NCBI RefSeq assembly: GCF_009914755.1
Contig: NC_060947.1
Source of the DNA: the human T2T-CHM13v2.0 reference genome, Homo sapiens
DNA: 64,000 nucleotides
Strand: one strand, 5' to 3'
This document shows, piece after piece, positions 55,135-63,287 of this stretch. How positions within the stretch are numbered: the first letter of the stretch is position 1; every line of letters begins with the position of its first letter. The notes under the pieces were generated by a model. That model saw only the letters and a program-made list of their open reading frames with translations. It did no database searches and was not told the DNA's origin. A program made the position numbers and the translations under genes.

Positions 55135-58097
55135 TTTTTTATTATTATACTTTAAGTTTTAGGGTACATGTGCACAACGTGCAGGTTTGTTACATATGTA
55201 TACATGTGCCATGTTGGTGTGCTGCACCCATTAACTCGTCATTTAACATTAGGTGTATCTCCTAATACTATCCCTCCCCCCTTCCCCCACCCCACAACAG
55301 GCCCTGGCGTGTGATGTTCCCCTTCCTGCGTCCAAGTGTTCTCATTGTTCAATTCCCACCTATGAGTGAGAACATGCGATGTTTGGTTTTTTGTCCTTGC
55401 GATAGTTTGCTGAGAATGATGGTTTCCAGCTTCATCCATATCCCTACAAAGGACATGAACTCATCATTTTTTATGGCTGCATAGTATTCCATGGTGTATA
55501 TGTGCCACATTTTCTTAATCCAGTCTATCGTTGTTGGACATTTGAGTTGGTTCCAAGTCTTTCCTATTGTGAATAGTGCTGCAATAAACATACGTGTGCA
55601 TGTGTCTTTATAGCAGCATGATTTATAATCCTTTGGGTATATACCCAGTAATGGGATGGCTGGGTCAAATGGTATTTCTAGTTCTGGATCCCTGAGGAGT
55701 CAACACACTGACTTCCACAATGGTTGAACTAGTTTACAGTCCCACCAACAGTGTAAAAGTGTACCTATTTCTCCACATCCTCTCCAGTACCTGTTGTTTC
55801 CTGAATTTTTAATGATCGCCATGCTAACTGGTGTGAGATGGTATCTCATTGTGGTTTTGATTTGCATTTCTCTGATGGCCAGTGATGATGAGCATTTTTT
55901 CATGTGTCTGTTGGCTGCATATATGTCTTCTTTTGAGAAGTGTCTTTTCATGTCCTTCACCCACTTTTTAATGGGGTTGTTTGTTTTTTTTCTTGTAAAT
56001 TTGTTTGAGTTCATTGTAGATTCTGGATATTAGCCCTTTGTCAGATGAGTAGGTTGCTAAAATTTTCTCCCATTCTTTGGTTGCCTGTTCACTCTGATGG
56101 TAGTTTCTTTTGCTGTGCAGAAGCTCTTTACTTTAATTAGATCCCATTTGTCAATTTTGGCTTTCATTGCCATTGCTTTTGGTGTTTTAGACATGAAGTC
56201 CTTGCCCATGCCTATGTCCTGAATGGTATTGCCTAGGTTTTCTTCTAGGGTTTTTACGGTTTTAGGTCTAACGTGTAAGTCTTTAATCCATCTTGAATTG
56301 ATTTTTGTATAAGGTGTAAGGAAGGGATCCAGTTTCAGCTTTCTACATATGGCTAGACAGTTTTCCCCGCACCATTTATTAAATAGGGAATCCTTTCCCC
56401 ATTGCTTGTTTTTCTCAGGTTTGTCAAAGATCAGATAGTTGTAGATGTGTGGCATTATTTCTGAGGGCCCTGTTCCGTTCCATTGGTCTATGTCTCTGTT
56501 TTGGTAGCAGTACCATGATATTTTGGTTACTGTAGCCTTGTAGTATAGTTTGGAGTCAGGTAGTGTGATGCCACCAGCTTTGTTCTTTTGGCTTAGGATT
56601 GACTTGGCAATGCGGGCTCTTTTTTGGTTCCATATGAACTTTAAAGTAGTTTTTTCCAATTCTGTGAAGAAAGTCATTGGTAGCTTGATGGGGATGGCAT
56701 TGAATCTATAAATTACCTTGGGCAGTATGGCCATTTTCACAATATTGATTCTTCCTATCCATAAGCATGGAATGTTCTTCCATTTGTTTGTGTCCTCTTT
56801 TATTTCATTGAGCAGTGGTTTGTAGTTCTCCTTGAAGAGGTCCTTCACTTCCCTTGTAAGTTGGATTCTTAGGTATTTTATTCTCTTTGAAGCAATTGTG
56901 AATGGGAGTTCATTCATGATTTAGCTCTCTGTTTGTCTGTTATTGATGTATAAGAATGCTTGTGATTTTTGTACATTGATTTTGTATCCTGAGACTTTGC
57001 TGAAGTTGCTTATGAGCTTAAGGAGATTTTGGGCTGAGACGATGGGGTTTTCTAGATATACAGTCATGTCATCTGCAAATAGGGACAGTTTGACTTCCTC
57101 TATTCCTAATTGAATACCTTTTATTTCCTTCTCCTGCCTAATTGCCCTGGCCAGAACTTCCAACACTATGTTGAATAAGAGTGGTGAGAGAGGGCATCCC
57201 TGTCTTGTGCCAGTTTTCAAAGGGAATGCTTCCAGTTTTTGTCCATTCAGTATGATACTGGCTGTGGGTTTGTCATAAATAGCTCTTATTATTTTGAGAT
57301 ACGTCCCATCAATACCTAATTTATTGAGAGTTTTTAGCATGAAGGTTGTTGAATTTTGTCAAAGGCCTTTTCTGCATCTATTGAGATAATCATGTGGTTC
57401 TTGTCATTGGTTCTGTTTATATGCTGGATTATGTTTATTGATTTGTGTATGTTGAACCAGCCTTGCATCCCAGGGATGAAGCCCACTTGATTATGGTGGA
57501 TAAGCTTTTTGATGTGTTGCTGGATTCTCTTTGCCAGTGTTTTATTCAGGATTTTTGCATCGATGTTCATCATGGATATTGGTCTAAAATTCTATTTTTT
57601 TATTGTGTCTCTGCCAAGCTTTGGTTTCAGGATGAATCTGGCCTCATAAAATGAGTTAGGGAGGATTCCCTCTTTTTCTATTGATTGGAATAGTTTCAGA
57701 AGGAATGGTACCAGCTCCTCCTTGTACCTCTGGTAGAATTCACCTGTGAATCCGTCTGGTCCTGGACTTTTTTTGGTTGGTAAGCTATTAATTATTGCCT
57801 CAATTTCAGAGCCTGTTATTGGTCTATTGAGAGATTCAACTTCTTCCTGGTTTAGTCTTGGGAGGGTGTATGTGTCGAGGAATTTACCCACTTCTTCTAG
57901 ATTTTCTAGTTTATTTGCGTAGGGGTGTTTATAGTATTATCTGATGGTAGTTTGTATTTCTGTGGGATCAGTGGTGATATCCCGTTTATCATTTTTTATT
58001 GTGTCTATTTGAGTCTTCTCTCTTTTCTTCTTTATTAGTCTTGCTAGCGGTCTATCAATTTTGTTGATCTTTTCAAAAACACCAGCTCCTGGATTCA
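55135..58097 (-). mobile_element. L1PA4/5-like 3' half (ORF2 RT through 3'UTR)
   Basis: Minus ORFs with SLFADDM and LHCWWDC; 3'UTR gttaaatgacgagttaatggg type. Confidence 0.97.
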
Positions 58098-58122
58098 GAC
58101 CAAAGGTATATAAAACCAAAAG

Positions 58123-59139
58123 ATGGGGAAAAAATAGAGCAGAAAAACTGAAAATTCTAAAAATCAGAGTGCCTCTCCTCCTCCAAAGGAACGCAGTTCC
58201 TCACCAGCAATGGAACAAAGCTGAATGGAGAATGACTTTGACGAGTTGAGAGAAGAAGGCTTCAGACAATCAAACTTCTCTGAGCTAAAGGAGGAAGTTC
58301 GAACCCATGGCAAAGAAGTTAAAAACCTTGAAAAAAGATTAGACGAATGGCTAACTAGAATAACCAATGCTGAGAAGTCCTTAAAGGAGCTGATGGAGCT
58401 GAAAACCATGGCACAAGAACTACGTGACAAATGCACAAGCTTCAGTAGCCAATTCGATCAACTGGAAGAAAGGGTATCAGTGATGGAAGATGAAATGAAT
58501 GAAATGAAGCGAGAAGAGAAGTTTAGAGAAAAAAGAATAAAAAGAAATGAACAAAGCCTCCAAGAAGTATTGGACTATGTGAAAACACCAAATCTACGTC
58601 TGATTGGTGTACCTGAAAGTGATGGGGAGAATGGAACCAAGTTGGAAAACACTCTGCAGGATATTATCCAGGAGAACTTCCCCAATCTAGCAAGGCAGGC
58701 CAACATTCACATTCAGGAAATACAGAGAATGCCACAAAGATACTCCTCGAGAAGAGCAACTCCAAGACACATAATTGTCAGATTCACCAAAGTTGAAAAG
58801 AAGGAAAAAATATTAAGGGCAGCCAGAGAGAAAGGTCAGGTTACCCACAAAGGGAAGCCCATCAGACTAACAGCTGATCTCTCGACAGAAACTCTACAAG
58901 CTAGAAGAGAGTGGGGGCCAATATTCAACATTCTTAAAGAAAAGAATTTTCAACCCAGAATTTCATATCCAGCCAAACTAAGCTTCATAAGTGAAGGAGA
59001 AATAAAATCCTTTACAGACAAGCAAATGCTGAGAGATTTTGTCACCACCAGGCCTGCCCTAAAAGGGCTCCTGAAGGAAGCACTAAACATGGAAGGGAAC
59101 AACCGGTACCAGCCACTGCAAAAACATGCCAAATTGTAA
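58123..59139 (+). pseudogene. L1 ORF1p with early nonsense codons (TAG at codon 5, TGA at 58222); open from 58225 (304 aa)
   Basis: ORF track 58225-59139: coiled coil, RRM and CTD of ORF1p. Confidence 0.96.
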
Positions 59140-62200: not shown

Positions 62201-63030
62201 AAGCAATGGCAACAAAAGACAAAATTGACAAATGGTATCTAATTAAACTAAAGAGCTTCTGCACAGCAAAAGAAACTACCATCAGATTGAACAGGCAACC
62301 TACAAAATGGGAGAAAATTTTAGCAACCTACTCATCTGACAAAGGGCTAATATCCAGAATCTACAATGAACTCAAACAAATTTACAAGAAAAAAAACAAA
62401 CAACCCCATTAAAAAGTGGGTGAAGGACATGAAAAGACACTTCTCAAAAGAAGACATTTATGCAGCCAAAAAACACATGAAAAAATGCTCACCATCACTG
62501 GCCATCAGAGAAATGCAAATCAAAACCACAATGAGATACCATCTCACACCAGTTAGAATGGCAATCATTAAAAAGTCAGGAAACAACAGGTGCTGGAGAG
62601 GATGTGGGGAAATAGGAACACTTTTACACTGTTGGTGGGACTGTAAACTAGTTCAACCATTGTGGAAGTCAGTGTGGCTATTCCTCAGGGATCTAGAACT
62701 AGAAATACCATTTGACCCAGCCATCTCATTACTGGGTATATACCCAAAGGACTATAAATGATGCTGCTATAAAGACACTTACACACGTATGTTTATTGCG
62801 GCATTATTCACAATAGCAAAGACTTGGAACCAACCCAAATGTCCAACAATGATAGACTGGATTAAGAAAATGTGGCACATATACACCATGGAATACTATG
62901 CAGCCATAAAAGTGATGAGTTCATGTCCTTTGTAGGGACATGGATGAAATTGGAAATCATCATTCTCAGTAAACTATCGCAAGAACAAAAAACCAAACAC
63001 CGCATATTCTCACTCATAGGTGGGAATTGA
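59203..63030 (+). pseudogene. L1 ORF2p, lightly disrupted (TAG 59983-85, +1 frameshift ~62395, TGA 62759-61)
   Basis: 260-aa EN ORF followed in frame by an 804-aa RT ORF with FADD. Confidence 0.97.
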
Positions 63031-63287
63031 ACAATGAGAACACATGGACACAGGAAGGGGAACATCACACTCTGGGGCCTGTTGTGGGGTGGGGGGAGCG
63101 GGGAGGGATAGCATTGGGAGATATACCTAATGCTAGATGACGAGTTAGTGGGTGCAGTGCACCAGCATGGCACATGTATACATATGTAACAAACCTGCAC
63201 ATTGTGCACATGTACCCTAAAACTTAAAGTATAATAATAATAAATAAAAATAAAATGAAATAAAATAAAATGGCAAAAAAAAGAAAA

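What the first reader, a model, noticed from the sequence alone, without database searches (positions are those of the whole stretch)
55135..63245. 3-kb L1 inverted repeat whose arms share non-consensus substitutions: apparent arm-to-arm gene conversion
Seen: the arms 55135-58097 (-) and 60282-63245 (+) flank a 2184-bp spacer. Their 3'UTRs and many other sites differ, one PA4/5-type and one PA2/3-type, so they look like independent insertions. Yet both carry the same unusual bases at scattered sites: tctctCaatag (60549/57829), agctCataag (61365/57014), atgctTatgg giving PCLW (61616/56763), ttaCacgtt...aaccGtaa giving [10 protein letters not shown] (62104,62122/56275,56257), and cccatTaaaaag...gaAAagac giving KDMKRH (62410,62434/~55945-55970). 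The L1 consensus as I recall it reads PCSW, DLNVRPKTIK and KDMNRH. Inference: repeated patchy conversion between fold-back arms, like a small palindrome. The spacer may also be a recurrent inversion polymorphism.
Basis: partly seen in the sequence, partly recalled or inferred. Interest (0 to 1): 0.8.

Follow-up and report, generated by a model that had tools for sequence, protein, structure and literature searches.

The report
Patchy gene conversion between inverted L1s
Two dead L1 retrotransposon copies of different ages lie head to head on the human X chromosome and have swapped short patches of sequence, a real but ordinary case of gene conversion between neighbouring repeats.

Summary
The arms 55135-58097 (-) and 60282-63245 (+) are 94.9% alike, and all seven quoted sites are shared at the stated places.

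The "spacer" is not unique DNA. It is the ORF1 and 5' ORF2 part of a 5.2-kb 5'-truncated L1 that abuts the minus copy directly.

I compared both arms with 56 other genomic L1 copies.
- The plus arm is a younger type throughout.
- The minus arm is an older type on both flanks.
- The minus arm carries ten younger-type bases, all within 61239-62428.

Inside that stretch the arms share alleles found nowhere else.
- The 40-mer at 62404-62443 occurs only in the two arms, out of 5163 related copies in the 3.1-Gb genome.
- The 70-mer at 62080-62149 is exact only in the two arms.

Three quoted sites are weaker. 61616T and 62122G are ordinary variants, and 61365C occurs in at least 18 other copies. Run-length tests alone are only modest support.

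Verdict: non-reciprocal, patchy arm-to-arm conversion is supported. Inversion of the spacer is untested and leaves no trace in this haplotype. This is a known kind of event, so interest is low to moderate.

The parts
55135..58097 (-). Minus arm: the 3' 3 kb of an older-type L1 (part of ORF2, 3' UTR, only six A's as tail). It is 5'-truncated inside ORF2 and its frames are broken.
   Evidence: 94.7-94.9% to the plus copy. (RVT_1 in 56921-57340). (3.59% from the older-type majority, 4.73% from the younger-type majority; flanks 3.2-3.8% against 5.3-5.8%). (tail).
58097..63295 (+). Younger-type L1 copy of about 5.2 kb. It is truncated 26 bp before the ORF1 start at 58123. ORF1 has a stop at its fifth codon and ORF2 is in pieces. 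It carries a degenerate A-rich tail.
   Evidence: collinear with the old copy at 9480-14601. (sequence). (ORF fragments). (Transposase_22, Tnp_22_dsRBD, Tnp_22_trimer, RVT_1). (39 of 39 other genomic matches begin at query base 12, which is 58097). (tail).
60282..63245 (+). Plus arm: the part of the younger copy that is repeated in inverted orientation.
   Evidence: (2.13% from the younger-type majority, inside the 0.89-3.12% range of 47 such copies).
58097..58099 (.). Direct head-to-head junction of the two truncated 5' ends. There is no intervening unique DNA and no target-site duplication.
   Evidence: plus-copy homology begins at 58097. (minus-arm homology ends at 58097). (no flank match above chance).
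62306..62457 (+). Best conversion tract: 152 bp identical to 55923-56074 on the minus arm. Older-type differences bound it at 62305 and 62472. Inside it the minus arm has younger-type bases at 62327 and 62428 and shares the rare alleles 62322A, 62410T and 62434A. Direction inferred: plus to minus.
   Evidence: The 40-mer 62404-62443 is exact only in the two arms, out of 5163 copies within 3 mismatches.
62023..62149 (+). Second conversion tract: 127 bp identical to 56230-56356. It holds younger-type bases at 62079 and 62106 and the rare allele 62104C. An older-type difference bounds it at 62150.
   Evidence: (the 70-mer 62080-62149 is 100% only in the two arms among 40 scored of 584 candidates).
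61202..61432 (+). Candidate tracts 61202-61259 and 61356-61432, with younger-type bases in the minus arm at 61239, 61251 and 61407. 61365C is shared but not private.
   Evidence: (the 77-mer is exact in at least 18 other places, so 61365C alone is no evidence).
61807..62010 (+). Candidate short patches 61807-61825, 61926-61928 and 61933-62010. The minus arm has younger-type bases at 61815, 61926 and 61965. These are interleaved with retained older-type bases at 61893 and 61932.
60509..60566 (+). Candidate tract: 58 bp identical to 57812-57869. It holds the shared rare 60549C. At 60513 the plus arm has the older-type base, which suggests the minus-to-plus direction.
   Evidence: (the 58-mer is exact in 8 places, the two arms and six others, out of 4871 within 2 mismatches).
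63075..63200 (+). Two single-marker patches, 63075-63095 and 63166-63200. Here the plus arm carries older-type bases (63078C, 63191A; each 0 of 46 younger-type copies). These are possible minus-to-plus conversions and are the weakest evidence.

Best explanation
An older-type L1 fragment (minus strand) and a younger-type 5.2-kb L1 copy (plus strand) arrived at different times. Their truncated 5' ends are joined directly, which makes a 3-kb inverted repeat with 2.2 kb of L1 between the arms.

Afterwards, breaks or stalled forks in one arm were repaired by homologous recombination with the other arm as template, without crossover. This copied short patches of tens to about 150 bp. Most went from the younger copy into the centre of the older one. 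Perhaps a few went the other way.

Shown here: the mosaic of type-specific bases, the alleles private to the locus, and the non-reciprocity. Inferred: the repair mechanism, the direction of each patch, the number of events, and the order of insertion.
For: 1. Different origin. Against 47 younger-type and 9 older-type genomic copies, the plus arm is younger-type at 38 of 42 diagnostic sites. The minus arm is older-type at 30, younger-type at 10 and neither at 2. Alleles seen in at most one of the 56 panel copies number 58 in the minus arm and 25 in the plus arm. The minus arm matches an 88%-identical old copy at 34 of its 115 own deviations; the plus arm does so at 2 of 36. In the central 431 bp neither arm is among the other's 40 best genomic matches.

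2. Mosaic. All ten younger-type bases of the minus arm lie in 61239-62428 (P 9e-5 and 4e-4). Nine of the ten are derived relative to the old copy at 9480-14601. The minus arm is equidistant from both types in the centre (3.59% and 3.67%) but clearly older-type on the flanks. The plus arm stays younger-type there, so the exchange was not reciprocal.

3. Private alleles in the same patches.
- The 40-mer with 62410T and 62434A is exact only in the two arms, out of 5163 copies within three mismatches. Among the 13 copies one mismatch away, seven carry 62410T alone and five carry 62434A alone.
- The 70-mer with 62104C is exact only in the arms among 40 scored of 584 candidates.
- The 58-mer with 60549C is exact in 8 of 4871.

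4. Controls.
- The arm pair shares 6 alleles seen in at most one other copy. The 702 other pairs gave: 548 pairs with 0, 118 with 1, 30 with 2, 4 with 3, 1 with 4 and 1 with 5.
- Shared deviations cluster: a run of 5, P 0.002; 8 adjacencies, P 0.0006.

5. Precedent in print. Mosaic diagnostic patterns and raised conversion between repeats within 10 kb and on sex chromosomes are described in PMC6598467 (section 4 read). Intrachromosomal conversion into an L1 is described in PMC1920257 (passages read).
Against: Run-length evidence is modest.
- A Sawyer-type test on 754 polymorphic columns gives P 0.009 for the arm pair alone. That is not the lowest of 210 pairs and would not survive correction.
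- An identical run of 152 bp or more occurs in 1 of 60 unlinked older-by-younger pairs. A third-longest run of 122 bp or more occurs in 0 of 60.
- The 122-bp run 61622-61743 is also seen between the plus arm and an unlinked copy, L044.

Other weaknesses:
- 61365C (at least 18 other exact 77-mers), 61616T (7 of 50) and 62122G (12 of 56) are not private.
- 60408T lies at a CpG, where the same mutation can recur.
- The older-type reference group has only 9 copies. One of them, L050, is itself mosaic, so a rare intermediate subfamily is not fully excluded for patches that lack private alleles.
- Overall the minus arm is no closer to the plus arm (94.87%) than to its best unlinked copies (94.95% and 94.94%), so the exchanged fraction is small.
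- All data come from one assembly. No independent copy of the locus was found.
Confidence: 0.82

Rival explanations
1. No exchange took place. The minus arm belongs to a rare intermediate or recombinant L1 lineage, and the plus arm descends from the same lineage, so the shared alleles are inherited from common source elements.
For: 61365C is carried by at least 18 other copies although it was 0 of 45 in the panel, so minor lineages escape the panel. One panel copy, L050, shows a mixed older/younger pattern. The older-type group has only 9 copies.
Against: The 62410T and 62434A pair exists only in these two adjacent copies, out of 5163. The 62104C haplotype likewise appears only in the arms among the scored candidates. 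A lineage that left exactly two copies, side by side, is implausible. The younger-type bases of the minus arm are confined to 1.2 kb. L050's pattern overlaps the minus arm's at only 5 of its 10 younger-type sites, where chance predicts 3.6 (read).
Confidence: 0.06
2. Both arms arose in one event, such as a fold-back or inverted duplication at insertion, or priming on both strands. They shared private alleles from birth and then diverged.
For: The two 5' ends are joined directly, with no target-site duplication for either copy. L1 insertions accompanied by inverted duplications and fold-backs are described in bioRxiv 10.1101/2024.12.14.628481 (passages read).
Against: Thirty older-type diagnostic bases in the minus arm stand against 38 younger-type ones in the plus arm. 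The counts of alleles seen in at most one of the 56 panel copies are unequal, 58 against 25. Each arm's distance from its own type is typical of, or above, that type. Neither arm is in the other's top 40 in the centre.
Confidence: 0.04
3. The shared alleles are an artefact of assembly or polishing, or a change private to the sequenced cell line, rather than germline evolution.
For: Only one assembly was available. Scans of two other collections for the unique 40-mer found nothing.
Against: The arms differ at 157 columns spread over the whole length, so long reads should place uniquely. The converted patches carry coherent sets of subfamily-type bases bounded by retained differences, which is not what mis-polishing of single bases would give. 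This last point is inference, since reads were not seen.
Confidence: 0.05
4. The same mutations arose twice by chance at mutable sites.
For: 60408 and 62421 are CpG transitions, and 62322 lies in a CpG. Each single allele recurs in a few unrelated copies.
Against: 60549, 62104, 62410 and 62434 are not at CpGs, and three of the four are transversions. Genome-wide frequencies are about 0.1-0.2%. With 31 rare plus-arm alleles, the expected number shared is 0.06-0.16, and P for four or more is below 3e-5.
Confidence: 0.01

Closest known systems
Nonallelic (ectopic) gene conversion between dispersed repeats, as described for Alu, LTR and L1 elements (Fawcett and Innan 2019, PMC6598467, section 4 read; Sen et al. 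2007, PMC1920257, passages read; Tremblay et al. 2000 and Burton et al. 1991 seen only as citations)
   Same: A copy shows a mosaic of subfamily-diagnostic bases. Clustered transferred alleles are present. The partners are less than 10 kb apart and on a sex chromosome, where such exchange is reported to be raised.
   Different: Here the donor can be named, because the transferred patches carry alleles private to the neighbouring copy. The partners are inverted, directly abutting L1 fragments about 5% diverged.
Large sex-chromosome palindromes kept above 99% arm identity by arm-to-arm conversion (PMC8981503 and PMC8327919, abstracts seen)
   Same: Inverted arms around a spacer on the X chromosome, with intrachromosomal arm-to-arm conversion.
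   Different: The arms are only 3 kb and 94.9% alike and are made of two unrelated dead L1 insertions. They hold no genes. Conversion has touched only a small part, so there is no concerted evolution of the whole arm.
Retrotransposon recombination-mediated inversion between inverted L1 pairs (Lee et al. 2008, PMC2603318, passages read)
   Same: The substrate is the same: an inverted L1PA-like pair a few kb apart.
   Different: That process leaves chimeric elements, the front of one joined to the back of the other, and an inverted interval. Here the plus copy is collinear and of one type throughout, and the minus arm is older-type on both flanks. This haplotype therefore shows conversion without crossover.
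Twin-priming 5' inversion of a single L1 insertion (Ostertag and Kazazian 2001; seen as a citation in PMC1920257, the model itself recalled)
   Same: Two L1 segments are joined head to head, directly.
   Different: The segments overlap by 3 kb, both include the 3' end, and they are of different subfamily type and age.

Membership tests
LINE-1 (L1PA-like) retrotransposon copies | ORF1p domains and the ORF2p reverse transcriptase | tested here: met
   Transposase_22 (E 7.8e-59), Tnp_22_dsRBD and Tnp_22_trimer are found in 58225-59139. RVT_1 is found in 59998-62412 (E 6.5e-45) and in 56921-57340 on the minus strand (E 2e-21).
LINE-1 (L1PA-like) retrotransposon copies | Thousands of close paralogues in the same genome | tested here: met
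   (5163 and 4871 places within 3 and 2 mismatches of short stretches). (2217-3918 first-look candidates).
LINE-1 (L1PA-like) retrotransposon copies | A-rich 3' tail and flanking target-site duplications | tested here: not met
   The plus copy has a tail. The minus copy has only six A's. No flank pair matches above chance. The copies are still L1 by sequence. The missing duplications bear on how they inserted, not on what they are.
Nonallelic gene conversion between repeats | Alleles shared by the two partners and absent from the rest of the family | tested here: met
   (2 of 5163). (exact only in the arms among 40 scored of 584). (the arm pair ranks first of 703 pairs).
Nonallelic gene conversion between repeats | Non-reciprocal mosaic of diagnostic sites in the acceptor, clustered in tracts | tested here: met
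Nonallelic gene conversion between repeats | Identity tracts longer than unlinked pairs show | tested here: inconclusive
   (P 0.03, 0.006 and 0.0004 under uniform placement). Against that, (pairwise P 0.009, not the lowest of 210 pairs; 1 of 60 and 0 of 60 unlinked pairs reach the observed runs).
Nonallelic gene conversion between repeats | The unconverted state seen in an orthologue or another haplotype | not testable with these tools
   No ape or second human assembly was held. Searches found no other record with the unique 40-mer.
Sex-chromosome palindromes | Arm-to-arm identity above 99% over long arms | tested here: not met
   94.87% over 2.96 kb. The 99% threshold is as worded in the abstracts of PMC8981503 and PMC8327919.
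Twin-priming L1 inversion | Inverted and direct segments come from one element and do not overlap substantially | tested here: not met
   The overlap is 2.96 kb and the segments differ in subfamily type.
L1 recombination-mediated inversion | Chimeric front/back elements at both breakpoints | tested here: not met
   The plus arm is of one type throughout and collinear with its 5' part. The minus arm is older-type on both flanks.

The most novel reading that the evidence does not exclude
The locus may be a palindrome at birth. Two unrelated L1 insertions that happened to abut head to head are being homogenised from the centre outwards by repeated conversion in both directions. The 2.2-kb interval may flip in some human or ape haplotypes. 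If so, it would be a natural, datable substrate for measuring how often, and in what tract sizes, recombination acts between inverted repeats that are 5% diverged.
Probability: 0.12. Interest if true: 0.5.

Novelty: new member of a known kind. Interest (0 to 1): 0.3.

Why it matters
The case shows that the donor of a repeat-to-repeat conversion can be named when the transferred patch carries alleles unique in a complete genome.

It is also a warning for dating and classifying L1 copies. The centre of the older copy now looks younger than its flanks.

It has no evident bearing on a gene. The pair lies 11-19 kb beyond the first exon of USP26 as listed in the annotation given with the finding.

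Tried and rejected
- Target-site duplications. I compared the left flank of the minus copy, the junction, and the DNA after both A runs of the plus copy. Nothing exceeded shuffled controls.
- An independent copy of the locus. Exact scans for the unique 40-mer in genome contigs and viral contigs found none.
- A third panel of copies. I asked for no more loci.
- Forced alignment. A forced multiple alignment mis-aligned non-L1 flanks. I replaced it with a BLAST projection. The first counts are superseded.
- L014 was dropped from the panel because it is only 89.7% identical.
- The uniform-placement run test overstates significance. Empirical pair controls were added.
- Naming the subfamilies. No Dfam library was held. 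Khan et al. 2006 could not be opened under the id I guessed and did not appear in the listing.
- Searches for this locus in print listed nothing about it. No listed paper contains USP26.
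Full report
**1. What is there**

The inverted repeat is real. The repeat finder returns four collinear arm pairs, 92-96% complementary, across 55135-58079 and 60299-63244. A global alignment of 55135-58097 (reverse complement) with 60282-63245 has 152 substitutions (101 transitions, 51 transversions; 25 at a CpG in either arm) and 5 indel columns. 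Identity is 94.87% and the interval between the arms is 2184 bp.

That interval is not unique DNA. A single collinear match links 58119-63231 to an older L1 copy at 9480-14601. Pfam finds the three ORF1p domains in 58225-59139 and the reverse transcriptase in 59998-62412.

Thirty-nine of 39 other genomic matches to 58086-58170 begin at query base 12, which is 58097. The 16 bases left unmasked in the supplied annotation are therefore the end of the L1 5' UTR. The two L1 fragments abut directly, 5' end to 5' end.

Both copies are dead. ORF1 of the plus copy has a stop at its fifth codon (sequence), and ORF2 is in pieces in both copies. No target-site duplication was found for either copy.

**2. 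Reference panel**

The window's own complete genome could be searched. I took the 29 best other matches to 62050-62480 of the plus arm and the 29 best other matches to 56400-56830 of the minus arm. Each came with 1.5 kb on either side. One appears in both lists as the other arm, which left 57 loci in all once the arms' own loci L001, L009 and L031 were set aside.

I projected them onto the plus arm by BLAST. L014 was dropped because it is only 89.7% identical, leaving 56 copies. A third panel could not be cut out.

In the central 431 bp neither arm is among the other's 40 best genomic matches. In 62050-62480 the minus arm ranks ninth. So there is no whole-arm homogenisation. The minus arm is 94.87% identical to the plus arm and 93.4-94.95% identical to the unlinked panel copies.

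**3. Two types, two ages**

The panel splits into two groups:
- 47 copies are much closer to the plus arm. I call these younger-type.
- 9 copies are equidistant from both arms. I call these older-type.
- The per-site majorities of the two groups differ at 72 of 2957 columns.

Forty-two sites separate the groups at 70% or more in each. The plus arm is younger-type at 38 of them. The minus arm is older-type at 30, younger-type at 10 and neither at 2.

Further comparisons:

| Measure | Plus arm | Minus arm |
|---|---|---|
| Distance from its own type's majority | 2.13% (47 such copies range 0.89-3.12%) | 3.59% (9 such copies range 2.16-3.39%) |
| Alleles seen in at most one panel copy | 25 | 58 |
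| Own deviations that match the old copy at 9480-14601 | 2 of 36 | 34 of 115 |

The two arms are therefore independent insertions, and the minus copy is the older one.

**4. The mosaic**

All ten younger-type bases of the minus arm lie between 61239 and 62428. Eleven diagnostic sites to the left are all older-type. Of the sixteen to the right, fourteen are older-type and two are neither type. Permutation gives P 9e-5 by site order and 4e-4 by physical span.

Nine of the ten are derived states relative to the old copy. They are not retained ancestral bases.

By region, the minus arm's distance from the two majorities is:

| Region | From younger type | From older type |
|---|---|---|
| 5' flank (60282-61201) | 5.33% | 3.81% |
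| Centre (61202-62457) | 3.59% | 3.67% |
| 3' flank (62458-63245) | 5.84% | 3.20% |

The plus arm remains younger-type in the centre. The exchange was therefore non-reciprocal, which argues for conversion and against a double crossover. Older-type bases persist inside the centre at 61893, 61932, 62150 and 62305, so the pattern is patchy.

**5. Private alleles**

The two longest identical runs are 62306-62457 (152 bp) and 62023-62149 (127 bp). Each is bounded by retained older-type differences, and each contains both younger-type bases and rare shared alleles.

Genome-wide counts for the shared stretches:

| Stretch | Rare alleles inside | Result |
|---|---|---|
| 40-mer 62404-62443 | 62410T, 62434A | Exact only in the two arms in 3.1 Gb; 5163 places within three mismatches |
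| 70-mer 62080-62149 | 62104C | 100% only in the two arms among 40 scored of 584 candidates |
| 58-mer 60509-60566 | 60549C | Exact in 8 places (the arms and six others) of 4871 within two mismatches |
| 77-mer 61356-61432 | 61365C | Exact in at least 18 other places |

Of the 13 copies one mismatch away from the 40-mer, seven have 62410T alone, five have 62434A alone, and one differs at the 62434 place by another base.

The 77-mer result means 61365C marks a minor lineage and proves nothing by itself, even though it was 0 of 45 in the panel. 61616T (7 of 50) and 62122G (12 of 56) are ordinary variants. 60408T is a CpG transition.

**6. Controls**

- Shared rare alleles. The arms share 6 alleles seen in at most one other copy. 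This is the highest of 703 pairs. Among the other 702 pairs, 548 share 0, 118 share 1, 30 share 2, 4 share 3, 1 shares 4 and 1 shares 5.
- Chance expectation. With 31 rare plus-arm alleles and allele frequencies of 0.2-0.5%, the expected number shared by chance is 0.06-0.16.
- Clustering. Shared deviations from the panel majority cluster: a run of five (P 0.002) and eight adjacencies (P 0.0006).

Run lengths alone are weaker evidence.
- Uniform placement gives P 0.03, 0.006 and 0.0004 for the three longest runs.
- A Sawyer-type permutation on 754 polymorphic columns gives P 0.009 for the arm pair. That is not the lowest of 210 pairs.
- Among 60 unlinked older-by-younger pairs, one has a run of 152 bp or more. 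None has a third-longest run of 122 bp or more.
- The run 61622-61743 also appears between the plus arm and the unlinked copy L044, so it is not evidence of conversion.

**7. Mechanism**

The best reading is homologous repair without crossover between the inverted arms on one chromatid or between sister chromatids.

In the tracts 62306-62457, 62023-62149 and probably 61202-61432, the younger-type bases and the rare alleles travel together into the older copy. That gives the direction plus to minus.

At 60513/60549, 63078 and 63191 the plus arm carries older-type or rare bases. That hints at a few minus-to-plus patches, on weaker evidence.

I cannot tell whether the alternation of converted and retained markers reflects several short events or one long heteroduplex with patchy mismatch repair. 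The transferred bases show no clear GC bias: six weak-to-strong, three strong-to-weak and one neutral among the ten type-specific sites (read). That sample is too small to judge.

**8. Origin of the junction (inferred)**

The ends are joined directly and no target-site duplications are present. This fits a younger insertion that removed target DNA, possibly including the 5' part of the older copy. It also fits capture at a break.

A single-event origin, such as a fold-back, inverted duplication or twin priming, does not fit the different types and ages.

**9. Inversion**

Crossover between inverted L1s leaves front/back chimeric elements and an inverted interval (PMC2603318, passages read). 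Here the plus copy is collinear and of one type throughout, and the minus arm is older-type on both flanks. This haplotype therefore shows no net inversion. Whether other haplotypes differ could not be tested.

**10. Comparison and novelty**

Several related phenomena are already in print:
- Mosaic diagnostic patterns in Alu, clustered transferred alleles in Y-linked LTRs, and raised conversion within 10 kb and on sex chromosomes (PMC6598467, section 4 read).
- Conversion involving L1 (PMC1920257, passages read; Tremblay 2000 and Burton 1991 seen only as citations).
- Arm-to-arm conversion in large X and Y palindromes (abstracts of PMC8981503, PMC8327919 and PMC3723533).

This locus is a new, clean instance of that known kind. 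It is not a palindrome in the accepted sense. My searches listed no paper about this locus. Supplementary tables of inversion and pangenome papers were not examined.

Noticed in passing
window 9480-14601 (+) and 49525-50329 (-): These are an older 5.1-kb L1 copy (86% identical to the plus copy, from the ORF1 start to the 3' UTR) and an 0.8-kb L1 3' fragment (86.6%). I used the first only as an outgroup.
   Followed up: partly
window 63226-63330: The tail of the plus copy is a degenerate A-rich stretch that ends near 63295. About 25 bases of other sequence follow, then a clean run of ten A's at 63321-63330. This may be a short 3' transduction or simply a second A run in the target.
   Followed up: no
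L041 and L047 (G000 contig C13, about 364 kb apart); L034 and L057 (C13, about 9 Mb apart): After the two arms, these same-chromosome pairs share the most rare alleles of 703 pairs (5 and 4). They may be duplicates, products of one source element, or further cases of exchange.
   Followed up: no
L050 (G000 C9:21311203-21314633): This copy shows an interleaved older/younger pattern at the 42 diagnostic sites, unlike the other 55 panel copies. It is either an intermediate subfamily member or another converted copy.
   Followed up: no
genomic places listed (for example C3 113.4-115.4 Mb, C11 107.37 and 107.38 Mb, C1 248.16 and 248.20 Mb): The exact 77-mer carrying 61365C recurs in at least 18 other L1 copies, several of them in local clusters. 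This suggests a minor L1 lineage, segmental duplications, or both.
   Followed up: no
window 58100-58115: The supplied repeat mask leaves these 16 bases unmasked. They match the end of the L1 5' UTR in 39 of 39 other genomic copies. The mask slightly understates the plus copy.
   Followed up: yes
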